A model generated the notes under the pieces. The model made no database searches and had not been told where the DNA came from. It worked only from the letters and a program-made list of their open reading frames with translations. A DNA stretch of 64,000 nucleotides from a virus, in IMG/VR virus record IMGVR_UViG_3300007512_000012, positions 46,938 through 110,937 of that record; one strand, 5' to 3'. Positions 17,317 through 22,425 of the stretch are shown here, piece by piece. The translations under genes and the position numbers were made by a program. The number at the start of each line of letters is the position of its first letter. Positions within the stretch are counted from its first letter, which is position 1.

Positions 17317-18720
17317 TCAGGCGCGCTTCTCGGCCGCTGCCGCCTGCTTGGTCAGCTTGCTGCGGATCTGCGCGGCGACCTTCGGCGACTCCTTGTCGCA
17401 GATGGCCTCGATGGCCTCGGGCCAGTCGCCGTAGAAGTCCACGGCCTCCTCCACCCGCTTGTGCCAGTTGCGGCGGGTGGACCAGCCCTCGACGATCTCG
17501 GCGATCTCCTCGTCCTCGGTCTTCGCCGGGGGCGGGGCCGGTCGCGTGCGGCCCGCGACGGCGGCGTCCGGCAGCAGGGCGGCCAGGTCGTCTCCGGCCG
17601 TCGTGACCTCGACATCGCCCGTCGCCCCGCCCTCGCCGACGTGGTCGATGCCGACGTTGCCCTCGGCCGGGACCTGCGTGGAGCCCTGGCCCCGGACCGC
17701 CTGCGCCTGGTGGGTCTGCGTGTCGTCGGGGACGACCACCGCACCGGCCTCGCGGTTCTGCGGGGTCTTCGCGACCGCCCGACCGACCTGCACCGGCTGA
17801 CGCCGGGCGGCCTTCGTGACGTTCACGGCCTTGACCTCGCCCGCCTCGACGACGCCGTCGCCGACCGTGGCACCGGACGAGAACTTGTACTCCTTGCCCA
17901 CCGGGACGCCCCCGGCGTCGTCGGCGATGACCTGGTACTTGCCGCCCTTGCCCGCCCGGCGACCACCCTGGTCGGCCGTGTCGTGCCGCGTGCCGCCCAT
18001 CTCATCCCGCGTCTTCGCGGGGTCGGCCTCCTCCAGGGCGGCCTGCCTCGCTGCGATGCGGTCGCGGTTGATGCGCTCGGCTCGGGCCACCTCCGCCCGC
18101 TCGGACGGCGACGCGGCCGGGGCGTTGCCCGTGCCCGCCTGGTGGACCGGGGTGGCCTTCACGAACTGCTGCTCCTTCTCGGCGTCCTCCATGAAGATGT
18201 CCTCGACATCCGGGGACACCTCGGCAGCGTGCTCGGCTCCCGACGCGCTCATGTCCACGTCCAGGGCCTCGGTCGGCTCGGCGGCGGCGGCGGTGATGCC
18301 GAGGTCGGCCTTCCGCTGTGCCCGCTGCGCACGCAGCTCGGCCAGGCGGTTGCGGTCGCCCGAAGACGCGGCCTCGCGGATCTGCTTGGCCTCGCCCATC
18401 GTGCCGATGACCGCCTCCTCCTCGGCCGCCTCGCCCATCTCGAAGGTGTCCCCGCGCTCGCGGGCCTCCGGGGTCGCGTGGCTGACCTGCACCCCGGCGG
18501 GCTTCGCCTGGTAGGTGGTGGTCTGGTCTTCCGCGACGACGAACCAGTCGCCCAGGAGGCTCTGGAGCTGCGGGACCGCGTACTCGACGCCCGCGTAGCG
18601 CACGGTCTGGCCGTCGTAGTCGAACTCATCGGCCTCGGCGATGTCCATTTCGTACTTGCCGACGTGGATCTTGTTCGTCGCCCGGTACGTCTTGAACTGG
18701 CCTCGCTTGAACTTGCTCAT
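17317..18720 (-). CDS. Hypothetical protein, largely low-complexity
   Basis: GGAGG RBS; folded-looking termini and an Ala/Glu/Gly-rich centre. Confidence 0.75.
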   Translation of the reverse strand: MSKFKRGQFKTYRATNKIHVGKYEMDIAEADEFDYDGQTVRYAGVEYAVPQLQSLLGDWFVVAEDQTTTYQAKPAGVQVSHATPEARERGDTFEMGEAAEEEAVIGTMGEAKQIREAASSGDRNRLAELRAQRAQRKADLGITAAAAEPTEALDVDMSASGAEHAAEVSPDVEDIFMEDAEKEQQFVKATPVHQAGTGNAPAASPSERAEVARAERINRDRIAARQAALEEADPAKTRDEMGGTRHDTADQGGRRAGKGGKYQVIADDAGGVPVGKEYKFSSGATVGDGVVEAGEVKAVNVTKAARRQPVQVGRAVAKTPQNREAGAVVVPDDTQTHQAQAVRGQGSTQVPAEGNVGIDHVGEGGATGDVEVTTAGDDLAALLPDAAVAGRTRPAPPPAKTEDEEIAEIVEGWSTRRNWHKRVEEAVDFYGDWPEAIEAICDKESPKVAAQIRSKLTKQAAAAEKRA

Positions 18721-18788
18721 CTAGATCGTCCTCCGCCTGGAGTATGGCCCCATGAACGGGGTGGAACCTGTGAACCCTACCCGGCCAC

Positions 18789-19064
18789 TCACAGACCTTC
18801 CTCGCGAGCAGCAGAAACGCTACCCGCCTGGATGTCTGCTTCCAGCGCACCACTGATCTTGTCGCGGATGACGGGCAAGAAGACCTTGCGGACCGGGACC
18901 CTCGCAACGACCTTCGCCTGCCGCTCACTGGCCGAGTAGACCAGGAACTCCAGCAGGCACCGGCCATCCGCCGTGTCGTTGAACCGGAAGGCGTTGGCGA
19001 ACACACCGAAGGCCAGGCGGGGGTCCACAACCACCTCGCAGACGACCCGATCCTGTCTCGGCAT
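18789..19064 (-). CDS. Hypothetical protein, paralog of 7098..7376
   Basis: Colinear motif similarity (NAFR, LEFLVYS, VVARV, IRD). Confidence 0.7.
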   Translation of the reverse strand: MPRQDRVVCEVVVDPRLAFGVFANAFRFNDTADGRCLLEFLVYSASERQAKVVARVPVRKVFLPVIRDKISGALEADIQAGSVSAAREEGL

Positions 19065-19076
19065 GTCGGCTCCCGG

Positions 19077-19766
19077 CTACTGGGCCTCCTTCCACTCCGC
19101 CAGAGCCTCCGCCAGATCATCCGATCCGTCCGGGGGGCTGTCCGCGTCGAGCAGGAAGCCTTCAGCCTCCTGCACTACCCGCAGAAGTCGGTCCATCTTG
19201 CGGCTGGTCTCCTCGATGTGGTCGCCCGTCAGGCTCTCGTCCAGCCGCCGCAGGACATCGACGACATCGCGGGGCGCTCCGTCCGAAGGCATCTCGCGAA
19301 GAACCGCCAGCGTCTCGCGCGCAGCGACCAGGTGGTCCCTCGGGGCCAGCAGGAGCCCCAGCCGCCTGTTGATGCCGTCGAGGACTTTGCTGTGCTCCGC
19401 GATGAGGGCCGTCAGGTGCTCCCTCTGCTTCTGGTGCTCGGCCTCCAGCTCGTCCTTCGTCTTGCGGAACTCCAGCTCCATCTGGCGGGCACGCTCCTCC
19501 CGAGCGTTCGCCTGCTGCCAGAGCTGCTGCTTGATGTCGCCCGCGAGCGATGCCGTGGTGTCGAGGTTGTCGGCGAAATCGCCCAAGCTCGACAGGAGCT
19601 TCCCAAGCGCCCCTGCCCCGTCCTGAACGTCACGCGGCAGGGTGACGTTCCCGCTGTACTGCGCATTCGTCAGGGCTTCACCGAGATCCCGCATCATCGT
19701 GCCGAAGTCGCTCACGGGTTGCCCCTCCGATGTCTGATTGAACGCGGTCGTTCCGAGCATGGGCAT
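19077..19766 (-). CDS. Coiled-coil hypothetical protein
   Basis: Heptad-rich helical composition. Confidence 0.6.
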   Translation of the reverse strand: MPMLGTTAFNQTSEGQPVSDFGTMMRDLGEALTNAQYSGNVTLPRDVQDGAGALGKLLSSLGDFADNLDTTASLAGDIKQQLWQQANAREERARQMELEFRKTKDELEAEHQKQREHLTALIAEHSKVLDGINRRLGLLLAPRDHLVAARETLAVLREMPSDGAPRDVVDVLRRLDESLTGDHIEETSRKMDRLLRVVQEAEGFLLDADSPPDGSDDLAEALAEWKEAQ

Positions 19767-19833
19767 GGGCCATCTACTCCCTGCCCCGCCTCACGGAACC
19801 CCCTGGCCGGGTAGAACAAGGCAGGAGAACACC

Positions 19834-20436
19834 ATGACCAAGCCCCACGAACTCGTCGCCCTCATCGACATGGACGGCACCGTCGCCGACTTCGACGGAG
19901 CCATGCGACGGGACCTCGCCACCCTCACCAGCCCCGGCGAGCAGGTGATCGCCGCCGGACCGGACGACTCCGACGAGCCGCTCTGGCTGAAGGCCCGCAA
20001 GAAGCTCACCAAGACCCAGCCGGGCTGGTGGCGGAACCTGCCCGTGTACGGCATCGGGATGGCGGCCTACACCCACCTGCGCGTCGGGGATGTGCTCGCG
20101 GCACCACTCGACCTTCTCGGTCCACGCCTGCGTGCTGCGGTACGGCCCCTTGGTCAGGACCATCATCGTGAAGCCCGCGTCGCGCAGGTGACCATCACCG
20201 AGGACAAGGGCCTGGTCTACGGCAAGGTGCTGGTAGACGACTGGCCCGCCTACGGCATCCGCTGGTTGGAGTGGCGGCCTCGTGGCCTGCTGGTGGTCCC
20301 GGCCTGGCCCTGGAACACGCTCGACCAGTACCCCGAGCACCTACACCCGAACATCATCCGGCTCACCGGGGACTGGCCCACGGAGCTTCCCCTGCTGCTG
20401 GAGCGCATCGCGGCCATCAAGGAGAGCGCACGCTGA
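19834..20436 (+). CDS. HAD-family 5'(3')-deoxyribonucleotidase (NT5C-like) with an internally inverted segment
   Basis: IDMDGTVADF, WWRNLP, K...LVDD, PWN motifs; motif II and the WxEKxxW segment are encoded on the opposite strand at 20084..20180. Confidence 0.85.
   Translation: MTKPHELVALIDMDGTVADFDGAMRRDLATLTSPGEQVIAAGPDDSDEPLWLKARKKLTKTQPGWWRNLPVYGIGMAAYTHLRVGDVLAAPLDLLGPRLRAAVRPLGQDHHREARVAQVTITEDKGLVYGKVLVDDWPAYGIRWLEWRPRGLLVVPAWPWNTLDQYPEHLHPNIIRLTGDWPTELPLLLERIAAIKESAR
20074..20190. repeat. Perfect 10-bp inverted repeat bounding a 97-bp inverted segment
   Basis: cacctgcgcg (20074-20083) and cgcgcaggtg (20181-20190). Confidence 0.9.
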
Positions 20437-20448
20437 TCGGGGCGTCTT

Positions 20449-20490
20449 AAACGACGAAACCCACCGGCCTCCCGAAGGGGCTACGGTGGG
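20449..20490 (-). terminator. Terminator hairpin at the 3' end of the candidate ncRNA
   Basis: cccaccg tagcccc ttcg ggaggc cggtggg followed by tttcgtcgttt on the minus strand. Confidence 0.7.
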
Positions 20491-20921
20491 TCCGCAGATG
20501 ACTGTCACCGGCTGCGGCCTTGTGGGGCCGTTCCCGATGTTGTCCCCGTCCTCCCTTGGGAGGCCGACTTCCGCAACCGCTCTCGCGGGCTGCTTCCGCC
20601 AGACCGAGTCAGGTGAAGGTGATGGTCCCTTCTTCCTCGGCGTGGGTTTCGACCGGAGTTTCCTCCAGCCAGGTATTGGGCTTGAACCCCTCTACCCTGA
20701 CCCCTTGTTCAAGAGGGGTCCCATCGTTGAGGCCAGCGGCTAACTGACCCCCTACTCTGCCGCCTGCTCCCCTTGCCACGGGGTCGGCCTGCGGTAGAGG
20801 CCCCGCCGGGTTTCCCCTTTGGAGCGCGCCAGGATGGCTGTCCTGGCTTCCGGTTCGGGGTGACTGCGGTGCCTAGTCCCGTCTGCCTCGAACCGTGCCG
20901 CTCGGGTCTCCCCGTGCAGCG
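20449..20921 (-). ncRNA. Candidate large structured ncRNA (~470 nt), family unassigned
   Basis: No convincing ORF; dense hairpins capped by GAGA, GAAA, GCAA and UUCG loops on the minus strand; upstream promoter and a 3' terminator hairpin. Confidence 0.7.
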
Positions 20922-20927
20922 AGGGAG

Positions 20928-20956
20928 GTTCTAAACGACCTGGACTCGGGGGTCAA
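20928..20956 (-). promoter_or_regulatory. Sigma70-like promoter TTGACC-N17-TAGAAC with an upstream A-tract
   Basis: Exact 17-bp spacer; gaaaaaa tract ~15-20 bp upstream of -35. Confidence 0.65.
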
Positions 20957-20977
20957 GCGGTTCCCGAACTTTTTTCG

Positions 20978-21190
20978 TCAGCGACGAGTTCGGCGGGTGC
21001 GTGCCCGGAGGATTCGGTCAGCGTGTGCCTCGATGGCCCGGTTGATCCGGTTGTCGCTGAAGAAGGGGATCGGCTCTCCCCGGAGCATCCGGTGGGCCAG
21101 GGTCTTGATCTTCCCGAAGCGCATCATCCCGTCCAATCAGTTGTCGATGATGAGGGCGGCCAGCAGGTAGGTGATCGTGCGCGTCGTCAT
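20978..21190 (-). pseudogene. Small 70-codon ORF interrupted by an in-frame TGA (or a 49-aa ORF from ATG 21127)
   Basis: GGAG RBS; MTTRTITYLLAALIIDN*LDGMMRFGKIKTLAHRMLRGEPIPFFSDNRINRAIEAHADRILRARTRRTRR. Confidence 0.4.
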
Positions 21191-21454
21191 GCTCGGGTTC
21201 TCCAATCCGTTCTGCCCCTACTACTGGCCTGCTCCGGCGGCTGAGCCCCGAGATCGAAAAAAGTTCGAGGGCTCAGAAAAAGCCGCTGGTCGGTGGTGAT
21301 GGTGAAGGCAGGAAGCGAGGCCCCGACAGCCCTTCCCCTCCTGCCGCCACGACGAAGGAGGCCGGATGAAGTGACGACCGATGCGACAGAATCCATTCCG
21401 TCTGACGGCCCCCGGTAGTACCCCTGCCGGGGTGTCCGTCGTTGTGGGGAGCCG

Positions 21455-21494
21455 AAACGACAGCACCCCCGGAGGCCGAAGCCGCCGGGGGTGC
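21455..21494 (-). terminator. Terminator downstream of the major capsid gene
   Basis: gcacccccgg cggc ttcg gcct ccgggggtgc followed by tgtcgttt on the minus strand. Confidence 0.7.
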
Positions 21495-21552
21495 GTCGAG
21501 TGGTGTCCCGAAGGAGCGGCCGGGTCACCGACCGCTCCTCACCGGCCCGCTA

Positions 21553-22425
21553 CTAGCGGGTGACGGTCAGGCGGGCGAGGCCGCGCGGGTTGTAGGCCCC
21601 GAGGCCCAGGTTCTCGAAGATCGAGAAGCCGATCATCCGGCGCTTCGGGTCGTCGGCCGACAGGACCGTCAGCTCGGTGCGGACCGGGATGCGGCCGAAC
21701 ATCTCCGGCTCGCAGCACAGGTACACCGTGCCGTTGGGCACGAGGCGGCTGGTGACGACGTTGGCCCCGTAGATGACCCCCTGGAGGCCCGTCTTCAGGA
21801 GCGTCGCCTGCGACTCGATGTCGAGGATGTCGCGGCCGAACTTGCGGATGTCCGCGTAGTCCCGCGCGTTCATGTAGATGCGGGCGACCCGGAGGTCGTG
21901 CCGCTCGATGAGCGCGAAGGCGTCCGCCAGCACCGCGCCCGAGATCGGGGCGATGACGGGGATGTCGGCGTTGAGCTGACCCGGCAGGGAGTCGAAGCCC
22001 GCCGTGGCGACGGCGTCGAGGACGGCGAAGACGCGCTCGTCCTCGGCGGCCTGGATCTGCGCCCGGCCGAGGTCCTGGGACCGCTCGATCAGGTCGAAGC
22101 GGCGCTCCTTGATCTGGGTGAGCGGGATCTCCGGGTTCGACGCGATCTCGAAGAGCGGGAAGATCACCCGGCGCGGCTTGGTGACCGCGAGGATGTTCTG
22201 GCCCTCTTCGCCGACCACGTAGGCGGTGATGTCGGGGTCCTTGTCGTAGATGGGCAGCGCACCGTCGGGGAGCTGCTCGACCAGGAAGGTCTTGCGGCCC
22301 ACGGCGGCGTAGTCCCGCCGCGTGCGGAGGGGCTGCGTCATCGACGCGGCGAGCTTGGCGCGACCCTGCGGGGTCTTGATGTACTCGCCGATGATCTTCT
22401 GCTTGACGGCGTTGGTGGCGTTCAT
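21553..22425 (-). CDS. Major capsid protein (HK97 fold)
   Basis: Follows protease, scaffold and decoration genes; strong RBS and codon bias; GRAKLAASMTQPLR..DY..VGRK.FLVEQLPDGALPIY, IQAAED, GxIYGANVVTSRLVP, final NPRG. Confidence 0.88.
   Translation of the reverse strand: MNATNAVKQKIIGEYIKTPQGRAKLAASMTQPLRTRRDYAAVGRKTFLVEQLPDGALPIYDKDPDITAYVVGEEGQNILAVTKPRRVIFPLFEIASNPEIPLTQIKERRFDLIERSQDLGRAQIQAAEDERVFAVLDAVATAGFDSLPGQLNADIPVIAPISGAVLADAFALIERHDLRVARIYMNARDYADIRKFGRDILDIESQATLLKTGLQGVIYGANVVTSRLVPNGTVYLCCEPEMFGRIPVRTELTVLSADDPKRRMIGFSIFENLGLGAYNPRGLARLTVTR

What the first reader, a model, noticed from the sequence alone, without database searches (positions are those of the whole stretch)
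20449..20956. Stand-alone ~470-nt highly structured RNA downstream of the capsid gene
Seen: in an otherwise densely coding genome this stretch has no credible ORF. It has a TTGACC-N17-TAGAAC promoter (20928-20956) and a terminal UUCG hairpin with U-rich tail (20449-20490). Between them is a run of stems whose loops read as stable tetraloops on the minus strand: GGG-GAGA-CCC 20904-20913, GGG-GAAA-CCC 20808-20817, a GCAA-containing loop near 20769-20783, GGAG-GAAA-CUCC 20655-20666 and CCGC-GAGA-GCGG 20577-20588. Further stems lie at 20828-20847 and 20699-20720. The apical CUUGAAC of the latter (20707-20713) is complementary to GUUCAAG (20681-20687), a possible pseudoknot or switch. Known: phages carry large ncRNAs of unclear function (GOLLD, ROOL). 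I cannot assign this one to a family. Inference: possibly a new class of large phage ncRNA or ribozyme.
Basis: partly seen in the sequence, partly recalled or inferred. Interest (0 to 1): 0.85.

Follow-up and report, generated by a model that had tools for sequence, protein, structure and literature searches.

The report
New folded RNA gene, giant phage
A gene-free 0.5 kb stretch behind the head-protein gene of an uncultured giant phage is a self-contained gene for a heavily folded, roughly 470-base non-coding RNA of an uncatalogued family; its job is unknown.

Summary
Window 20449-20956 (minus strand) is a promoter-to-terminator unit with no coding signal. Every frame has stops, substitutions show no 3-base periodicity, and no frame has the high GC3 of real genes.

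The RNA folds far better than shuffles (z about -5). It matches no Rfam family, tRNA or tmRNA.

Only three other distinct homologues turned up in IMG/VR and JGI metagenomes. All lie in phages whose head protein is 99% identical to this one. They are only 65-80% identical in the RNA.

Each folds into the same roughly 16 hairpins. In the two domains that I realigned with covariance models, 23 of 72 base pairs show compensatory double changes. No shuffle out of 500 reached that number.

They are lost in a fourth lineage.

The -35/-10 boxes and the terminator are conserved. Close relatives lack the RNA, so it is an accessory cassette.

My verdict is a real, new, narrowly distributed family of large structured phage RNA. 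Expression could not be tested.

The parts
20970..20975 (-). A-tract just upstream of the -35 box (UP-element-like)
   Evidence: An A-rich run is kept upstream of the -35 box in all four homologues (A6). Its function is inferred.
20928..20956 (-). Promoter: -35 TTGACC, 17-nt spacer, -10 TAGAAC
   Evidence: The coordinates were verified. TTGAC is invariant, the -10 box is TAGAAC, TACAAC or TACTTT in the four homologues, and the spacer varies. The pattern is unique in the window. It fits the Caulobacter RpoD consensus TTGaCgS / GCtANAWC (PMC8144410).
20449..20920 (-). Predicted mature RNA, about 470 nt (the 5' end is inferred from the -10 box and the start of P1; the 3' end from the terminator tail)
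   Evidence: The ends were not mapped experimentally.
20897..20920 (-). P1 hairpin with GAGA tetraloop
   Evidence: Two pairs carry compensatory changes among three sequences.
20851..20895 (-). P2 domain (outer stem plus a variable inner hairpin)
   Evidence: The outer stem is 7 bp here, 5-6 bp in L004/L096 and 4 bp in L090. The strand sequences are different but complementary in each.
20828..20847 (-). P3 hairpin with a conserved 6-nt loop
   Evidence: Six of 7 pairs carry compensatory changes.
20800..20825 (-). P4 hairpin: 3x3 internal loop and invariant GAAA tetraloop
   Evidence: Two of 5 outer pairs are compensatory, and the inner stem and loop are invariant.
20755..20799 (-). P5 domain (long stem with the apical hairpin holding the GCAA-containing loop)
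   Evidence: Three compensatory pairs in the outer stem. The apical stem has different complementary sequences in each homologue.
20729..20751 (-). P6 hairpin
   Evidence: Three compensatory pairs, and an invariant G-U pair that would be A-C on the other strand.
20641..20726 (-). Four-way junction: P7 closes hairpins P8 (20700-20719), P9 (20671-20697) and P10 (20651-20670). It is flanked by the invariant 15-mer at 20718-20732.
   Evidence: Model R1 and alignment A5. P8 has 3 and P9 has 3 compensatory pairs. P7 is invariant, so it says nothing either way.
20681..20713 (-). Complementary loops of P8 (CUUGAAC, 20707-20713) and P9 (GUUCAAG, 20681-20687): a kissing-loop pair
   Evidence: There are 7 Watson-Crick pairs here and 6 of different sequence (UCUGUC/GACAGA) in L004. 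L096 has 4 pairs plus 1 after a mismatch, and L090 has none. Pairing a loop with the partner loop of another lineage gives at most 2 contiguous pairs.
20604..20640 (-). P11: outer stem plus the most conserved element, a 5-bp stem with an 8-nt loop (20615-20632)
   Evidence: The outer stem has 2 compensatory pairs, and the inner hairpin is invariant apart from one loop base.
20564..20602 (-). P13/P12 domain with GAGA tetraloop
   Evidence: Each homologue folds to the same stem, internal loop, stem and GAGA arrangement with different stem sequences.
20550..20563 (-). P14 hairpin
   Evidence: L004 carries a 15-nt insertion here that extends the hairpin with its own GAAA mini-stem.
20506..20539 (-). 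P15: two stacked stems with a 3x3 internal loop
   Evidence: The architecture is the same in three homologues although both stems differ in sequence.
20449..20494 (-). Terminator: long GC stem with UUCG loop and a U-rich tail
   Evidence: It is conserved in all full-length homologues. The same module also follows a protein gene in L009, which lacks the RNA. It abuts the stop codon of the convergent gene 19738-20436 (+).

Best explanation
The stretch is an independent gene for a compactly folded, trans-acting non-coding RNA of about 470 nt. It belongs to a family not in Rfam. It is carried as an accessory promoter-gene-terminator cassette in the mosaic slot between the head gene and the next structural genes of a small subclade of Bacillus-phage-G-like giant phages.

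Shown:
- The stretch is non-coding.
- The promoter boxes and the terminator are conserved.
- The sense strand is the folded one.
- About 16 helices are kept by compensatory change.
- Conserved GNRA tetraloops cap several helices.
- The loops of the adjacent hairpins P8 and P9 pair with each other, and this pairing covaries.

Inferred:
- Host RNA polymerase with its housekeeping sigma factor transcribes the gene.
- The RNA works as a folded particle that binds a host or phage protein, or associates with itself. It would not act as an antisense regulator or a cis element.
- The invariant P11 hairpin and the junction sequences are the likely contact surfaces.
- Because close relatives lack it, its role is auxiliary (host takeover or counter-defence), not part of virion assembly.
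For: Non-coding.

Fold: z is -4.9 and -4.5 and -6.2 in the homologues. Each homologue folds segment by segment into the same hairpins.

Covariation: RNAalifold finds 42 of 125 pairs with double changes. In the core, 95.3% of cells are paired and 11 of 43 pairs are compensatory; 0 of 500 shuffles reach this and slid controls give at most 2. In the P3-P5 domain, 87.9% are paired and 12 of 29 pairs are compensatory; again 0 of 500 shuffles, and slid controls give at most 5.

Strand: many conserved G-U pairs, GNRA loops only on the minus strand, and a weaker antisense z in two of three sequences.

Transcription unit: the -35 and -10 boxes are conserved with a variable spacer in four sequences, the pattern is unique in the window, and it fits an alphaproteobacterial RpoD consensus. 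The terminator is conserved. Terminator-like hairpins and small ORFs separate the unit from the capsid gene. In G001/G002 the RNA with its promoter lies 4.7 kb from the capsid gene.

Accessory status: the RNA is absent from L009 (98% capsid identity) and from 16 of the 17 other records of the clade searched with R1, among them three of 92-100% estimated completeness. It is single-copy in its own record.

No known family.
Against:
- Only four distinct sequences are known, one of them partial, and two of them (L004 and L096) are 80% identical. Covariation therefore rests on about three lineages, and R-scape-type statistics are not possible.
- The two tested alignments were fitted to the model structure, which favours pairing.
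- The consensus scanner calls neither the promoter nor the terminator. The -10 box lacks the usual final T.
- The loop-loop pairing is absent in L090.
- P7 and the inner P11 stem never vary, so they are unproven.
- For L090 the antisense strand folds as well as the sense strand.
- Nothing bears directly on function.
Confidence: 0.8

Rival explanations
1. It is a cis-acting end of the late (capsid) transcript: a structured 3' UTR or boundary element that stabilises or terminates the head-gene message. It is not a gene of its own.
For: It lies downstream of the capsid gene on the same strand. The terminator module is shared with L009, where it ends a protein gene. Earlier notes of this scan describe structured RNAs behind capsid genes of other soil phages.
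Against: It has its own conserved -35 and -10 boxes and an A-tract. Terminator-like hairpins and two small ORFs lie between it and the capsid gene. In G001/G002 it sits 4.7 kb away behind unrelated genes and keeps its promoter. A multi-domain fold of about 16 helices with conserved tetraloops and a kissing loop is far more than an mRNA end needs.
Confidence: 0.08
2. It is a strongly diverged member of a known RNA class (RNase P RNA, tmRNA, group I intron, ROOL, GOLLD, OLE, manA, pRNA) that the models fail to recognise.
For: Its size and its many GNRA tetraloops resemble large catalytic or ornate RNAs. Homing-endonuclease genes, often intron-borne, occupy the same slot in relatives.
Against: Three divergent homologues share no family hit even at E up to 10. 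ARAGORN finds no tRNA or tmRNA. It has its own promoter and terminator and no flanking exons. The hairpin-chain plus four-way-junction architecture is not that of these classes, as far as I recall them.
Confidence: 0.04
3. It acts as DNA (for example a packaging, replication or recombination site), or it is a decaying remnant with chance structure.
For: GC-rich DNA folds well in any case. The plus strand also scores below shuffles. The slot is a recombination hot spot.
Against: Conserved G-U pairs and GNRA loops are strand-specific. Compensatory changes preserve RNA helices. Invariant 15-22 nt blocks sit inside sequences that are 65-70% identical overall. The promoter and terminator are conserved.
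Confidence: 0.05
4. It encodes one or more small proteins, for example the 56-aa ORF 20609-20779 that ends in the most conserved block.
For: Open frames of 56-153 aa exist. The most conserved block reads as a plausible peptide end.
Against: Frameshifting indels break every frame between homologues. Substitutions show no third-position bias. GC3 is 0.62-0.70.
Confidence: 0.03

Closest known systems
ROOL and GOLLD RNAs (large ornate RNAs of phages and prophages; shown by cryo-EM to form RNA-only cages, bioRxiv 10.1101/2024.12.08.627333)
   Same: It is phage-borne, stand-alone, several hundred nucleotides long and multi-domain. It has conserved tetraloops and a covarying loop-loop pairing, and its function is unknown.
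   Different: There is no sequence or model similarity. It is not near tRNA genes; the window has none. The host phage is high-GC. The family has four known sequences, against hundreds or thousands for these classes. Multimerisation is untested.
phi29 pRNA (packaging RNA)
   Same: It is a phage RNA with its own promoter in which two loops of one molecule are mutually complementary and covary between relatives. In pRNA such loops pair between molecules to build a ring (established knowledge).
   Different: pRNA is 120-174 nt, occurs in small phi29-like phages, and is essential for packaging in all of them. This RNA is about 470 nt and is missing from close relatives. It has no Rfam pRNA match.
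manA RNA (Rfam RF01745), found as stand-alone genes in giant phages and reported to form a 60-mer cage (bioRxiv 10.64898/2026.07.01.735769)
   Same: It is a free-standing folded RNA gene of giant phages. Earlier notes of this scan place such genes downstream of capsid genes.
   Different: There is no manA match in the window or the homologues. This RNA is twice the size and has a different architecture.
Phage 'morons' (promoter-gene-terminator cassettes inserted between late genes; established knowledge from lambdoid phages)
   Same: It is a self-contained cassette with a host-type promoter and a terminator. It sits in a mosaic slot between structural genes and is present in some close relatives and absent in others.
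   Different: The cargo is a structured RNA rather than a protein gene, and the phage is a giant, probably virulent one.

Membership tests
Any Rfam 15 family (including ROOL, GOLLD, OLE, HEARO, raiA, manA, pRNA, RNase P, tmRNA, group I/II introns, self-cleaving ribozymes) | Covariance-model score at or above the family's gathering threshold | tested here: not met
   There are no matches in the whole window at gathering score. At E up to 10 only unrelated micro-hits of 10-17 bits appear, and they differ between the three homologues.
tRNA / tmRNA | Cloverleaf or tRNA-like domain with a tag reading frame, as detected by ARAGORN | tested here: not met
   ARAGORN finds no genes in 64 kb.
phi29-type pRNA | Two mutually complementary loops that covary among relatives | tested here: met
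   7 bp in the window, 6 bp of different sequence in L004, weakened in L096 and absent in L090.
phi29-type pRNA | Present in all members of the phage group (essential packaging component), 120-174 nt | tested here: not met
   The RNA is about 470 nt. It is absent from L009 and from 16 of the 17 other records of the clade searched, including near-complete genomes.
Large ornate phage RNAs as a kind (not a homologous family) | Stand-alone, over 400 nt, many helices supported by covariation, no coding capacity | tested here: met
Large ornate phage RNAs as a kind | RNA-only multimeric assembly | not testable with these tools
   This needs native gels, SEC, mass photometry or cryo-EM.
Intrinsic terminator / sigma-70-type promoter | Match to the simple consensus scan | tested here: not met
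   One search finds no promoter-like site and does not list the 20449-20494 hairpin. Both elements are supported by conservation instead and by the fit to the Caulobacter RpoD consensus.

The most novel reading that the evidence does not exclude
The RNA assembles with itself. The fully complementary loops of the adjacent short hairpins P8 and P9 are joined at their bases by only two nucleotides. That would build a dimer, ring or cage, and a further architecture of phage RNA-only assemblies beside ROOL, GOLLD and manA, here in a Bacillus-phage-G-like giant phage.
Probability: 0.15. Interest if true: 0.8.

Novelty: new variant of a known kind. Interest (0 to 1): 0.55.

Why it matters
Large structured RNAs with no protein partner are rare, and most of their functions are unsolved. 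ROOL, GOLLD and manA were recently shown to build RNA-only cages, which has made every new ornate phage RNA a candidate for structural work. This one adds a compact, GC-rich example of about 470 nt with a defined promoter and terminator, several conserved tetraloops and a covarying loop-loop contact. It is easy to transcribe in vitro and to test for folding and self-assembly.

It also shows that the mosaic slot behind the head gene of giant soil-type phages can carry RNA cargo as well as homing endonucleases and small enzymes. Its weight is limited by the very small family and the absence of expression or functional data.

Tried and rejected
Searches that found no known family or no further homologue:
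- Rfam at gathering and E-value thresholds on three homologues gave nothing consistent. ARAGORN found nothing.
- blastn against 50,697 phage records gave no match.
- Exact-pattern scans of IMG/VR, JGI metagenomes and GTDB genomes returned only the same contigs, one new partial homologue (L096), and chance matches inside coding DNA. I read the chance matches and discarded them (L082, L083, L086, L106-L110).
- Model R1 on 80 capsid-flank loci and on 17 other large records of the clade found no new homologue; the one strong hit was G017, the record of the already-known L005 copy.
- Fetching loci through a neighbouring protein failed at first because the listed 164-aa ORF 18626-19120 is a wrong-frame artefact. 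The 467-aa neighbour gave only the known contigs.

Structural ideas rejected or left open:
- The long-range helix that RNAalifold drew between the first bases and 20550-20563 is rejected. Its 5' strand lies between the -10 box and the probable start, and the 3' strand forms the local hairpin P14, which is extended by an insertion in L004.
- An alternative pairing of the invariant P11 loop with the 5' strand of P7 could not be separated from P7, because both are invariant.
- I found no partner for the L090 loops that is conserved elsewhere.
- A third covariance model for the 3' domain was not built, because the MAFFT alignment A9 is out of register. That domain rests on the independent folds.

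Possible partners rejected:
- The Arg-rich 52-aa ORF upstream is not conserved with the RNA, so it is not proposed as a partner.

Full report
**Context.** The window is part of a 110,937-bp IMG/VR virus record that CheckV estimates to be 25% complete. GC content is about 68%. The gene at 21553-22425 (-) is a major head protein (phrog_2522, E 4e-48). Its nearest relatives in GenBank phages are a 485-kb uncultured phage (84%), Tunturiibacter phage Tunturi_5 (49%) and Bacillus phage G (39%). The host phage is therefore a phage-G-like giant phage. The head protein is 85-99% identical in 481 IMG/VR contigs. Neighbouring genes are far more divergent: the 467-aa neighbour is 60-63% identical.

**Observation.**
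- The stretch does not code for protein. Stops occur in all frames of all homologues, and 1-2 nt indels are scattered along the alignment.
- Mismatches against the homologues fall evenly on the three codon positions (p 0.58-0.78). In the capsid gene they fall on the third position (p 1e-28).
- ORFs inside the stretch have GC3 of 0.62-0.70, against 0.79-0.98 in real genes.
- The minus strand folds at -243.7 kcal/mol, with z = -4.9. The plus strand gives z = -2.5.

**Homologues.** Rfam gives nothing and ARAGORN finds no gene. Among 80 loci fetched through the head protein, only L004/L005 carry a similar sequence directly (about 70% identity). A profile search then found the RNA in L003/L006, 4.7 kb downstream of the head gene. 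It was recovered in full from records G001/G002. A two-block exact pattern scanned over IMG/VR, JGI metagenomes and GTDB genomes added one partial sequence, L096, which is 80% identical to L004. It otherwise returned only known contigs or chance hits in coding DNA, which I read and discarded.

The family known so far has four distinct sequences, all in phages whose head protein is 99% identical to the window's. A covariance model of the core (R1) finds no further homologue in the other capsid-flank loci or in the 17 other large records of the clade. Those records include genomes of 619, 536 and 290 kb with 92-100% estimated completeness. It finds one copy in the window's own record. L009 (98% head-protein identity) has a LAGLIDADG-HTH-methylase ORF in the slot, followed by the same terminator module. 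The RNA is therefore accessory cargo in a mosaic slot.

**Transcription unit.**
- In all four sequences TTGAC is invariant. The -10 box reads TAGAAC, TACAAC or TACTTT at constant spacing. The spacer varies, and an A-rich run precedes the -35 box.
- The pattern is unique in the 64-kb window.
- It fits the Caulobacter RpoD consensus TTGaCgS / GCtANAWC (PMC8144410). This weakly hints at an alphaproteobacterial host. That is inference.
- P1 starts 8 nt after the -10 box.
- The 3' end is a long GC stem with a UUCG loop and a conserved U-rich tail (20449-20494).
- The simple consensus scanner calls neither element, which is a caveat.
- Between the capsid stop and the promoter lie a further folded non-coding stretch with terminator-like hairpins and two small ORFs. 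The RNA is therefore not simply the tail of the capsid message.

**Structure.** RNAalifold on four sequences predicts 125 pairs, 42 of them with compensatory double changes. The two full-length homologues fold with z = -4.5 and -6.2. When each sequence is folded alone, segment by segment, all adopt the same series of hairpins although the stem sequences differ. The series, in window coordinates, is:
- P1, with a GAGA loop
- P2
- P3
- P4, with a GAAA loop
- P5
- P6
- a four-way junction in which P7 closes P8, P9 and P10
- P11
- P13/P12, with a GAGA loop
- P14
- P15
- the terminator

Two domains were realigned with covariance models and counted:
- Core (20601-20752): 95.3% of cells paired and 11 of 43 pairs compensatory. 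No shuffle out of 500 reached this, and slid controls gave at most 2.
- P3-P5 (20753-20850): 87.9% paired and 12 of 29 pairs compensatory. Again 0 of 500 shuffles, and slid controls gave at most 5.

These alignments are fitted to the model, and the sample amounts to about three lineages, so the numbers are supportive rather than conclusive. Conserved G-U pairs and the GNRA loops identify the minus strand as the functional one. P7 and the apical P11 hairpin never vary. P11 (20615-20632) and the 15-mer at 20718-20732 are the most conserved elements and are candidate contact sites.

**Loop-loop pairing.** The P8 loop and the P9 loop are complementary over 7 bp in the window and over 6 bp of different sequence in L004. 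L096 has 4 bp, a mismatch and 1 more. L090 has none. Loops taken from different lineages do not match each other. The stems of P8 and P9 themselves covary, so the loop pairing must coexist with them. It is a kissing complex rather than an alternative helix. Whether it forms within one molecule or between molecules cannot be decided here. The two hairpins are short and joined by two nucleotides, and the whole P9 loop is paired. By general RNA geometry (inference) this makes an intermolecular, pRNA-like pairing a serious possibility.

**Function.** Nothing tests function directly.
- The cassette structure, the patchy distribution among near-identical phages and the host-type promoter argue for an auxiliary trans-acting RNA, not an essential virion or packaging component.
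- The elaborate fold argues against a simple antisense or terminator role.
- In L004 and G002 the RNA is followed by a convergent NUDIX gene (54% identical between the two). The window instead has a different convergent enzyme gene, 19738-20436 (+), with no Pfam hit.
- A link to these neighbours is possible but unsupported.

**Comparison with what is known, and novelty.** The RNA belongs to the kind represented by ROOL, GOLLD and manA: large stand-alone phage RNAs, some now known to form RNA-only cages (10.1101/2024.12.08.627333; 10.64898/2026.07.01.735769). It shares the covarying complementary loops of phi29 pRNA. It fails the membership test of every catalogued family. Literature searches found no description of it. 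Earlier notes of this scan report other uncatalogued structured RNAs behind capsid genes of soil and peat phages. A look-up by sequence found no look-alike of this one outside its own genome. The capsid-downstream regions of 75 clade members share no common element.

**Limits.** The family is tiny. The ends are unmapped. The 3' domain is supported only by independent folds.

Noticed in passing
window 21240-21552 (-): Directly after the capsid stop lies a second non-coding, strongly folded stretch (z -4.07) with GC-rich terminator-like hairpins. The listed 113-aa ORF 21187-21528 has GC1/2/3 of 0.63/0.68/0.66, so it is probably not a gene.
   Followed up: partly
window 20978-21190 (-): Two small ORFs share one frame and are split by an in-frame TGA: a 17-aa hydrophobic peptide, then about 48 aa ending in an Arg-rich tail. 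GC3 is above 0.9 across both. This could be stop-codon read-through or two mini-genes.
   Followed up: no
L009 5990-7999 (+); L094 5314-7617 (+): Relatives carry a LAGLIDADG homing endonuclease-HTH-DNA methylase fusion ORF immediately after the capsid gene. The slot is a hot spot for mobile genes.
   Followed up: partly
L004 7276-7722 (-); L094 10552-10977 (-): A NUDIX hydrolase gene lies convergent to the RNA and shares its terminator region in two lineages (54% identical). The window has a different convergent 232-aa gene at 19738-20436 (+) and no NUDIX homologue.
   Followed up: partly
window 20946-20977 (+): A plus-strand terminator-like hairpin followed by six T overlaps the RNA promoter. 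It could stop antisense read-through coming from the convergent gene.
   Followed up: no
window 21553-22425 (-) and loci L002-L081: The head protein is 85-99% identical in 481 IMG/VR contigs, while flanking genes of the same phages are about 60% identical and the downstream DNA is unalignable. The capsid gene is either unusually constrained or is being homogenised, perhaps by the adjacent homing endonucleases.
   Followed up: no
window 18626-19120 (-): This listed 164-aa ORF is a wrong-frame artefact. The conserved genes here are 18789-19064 (-) and 17317-18720 (-).
   Followed up: partly
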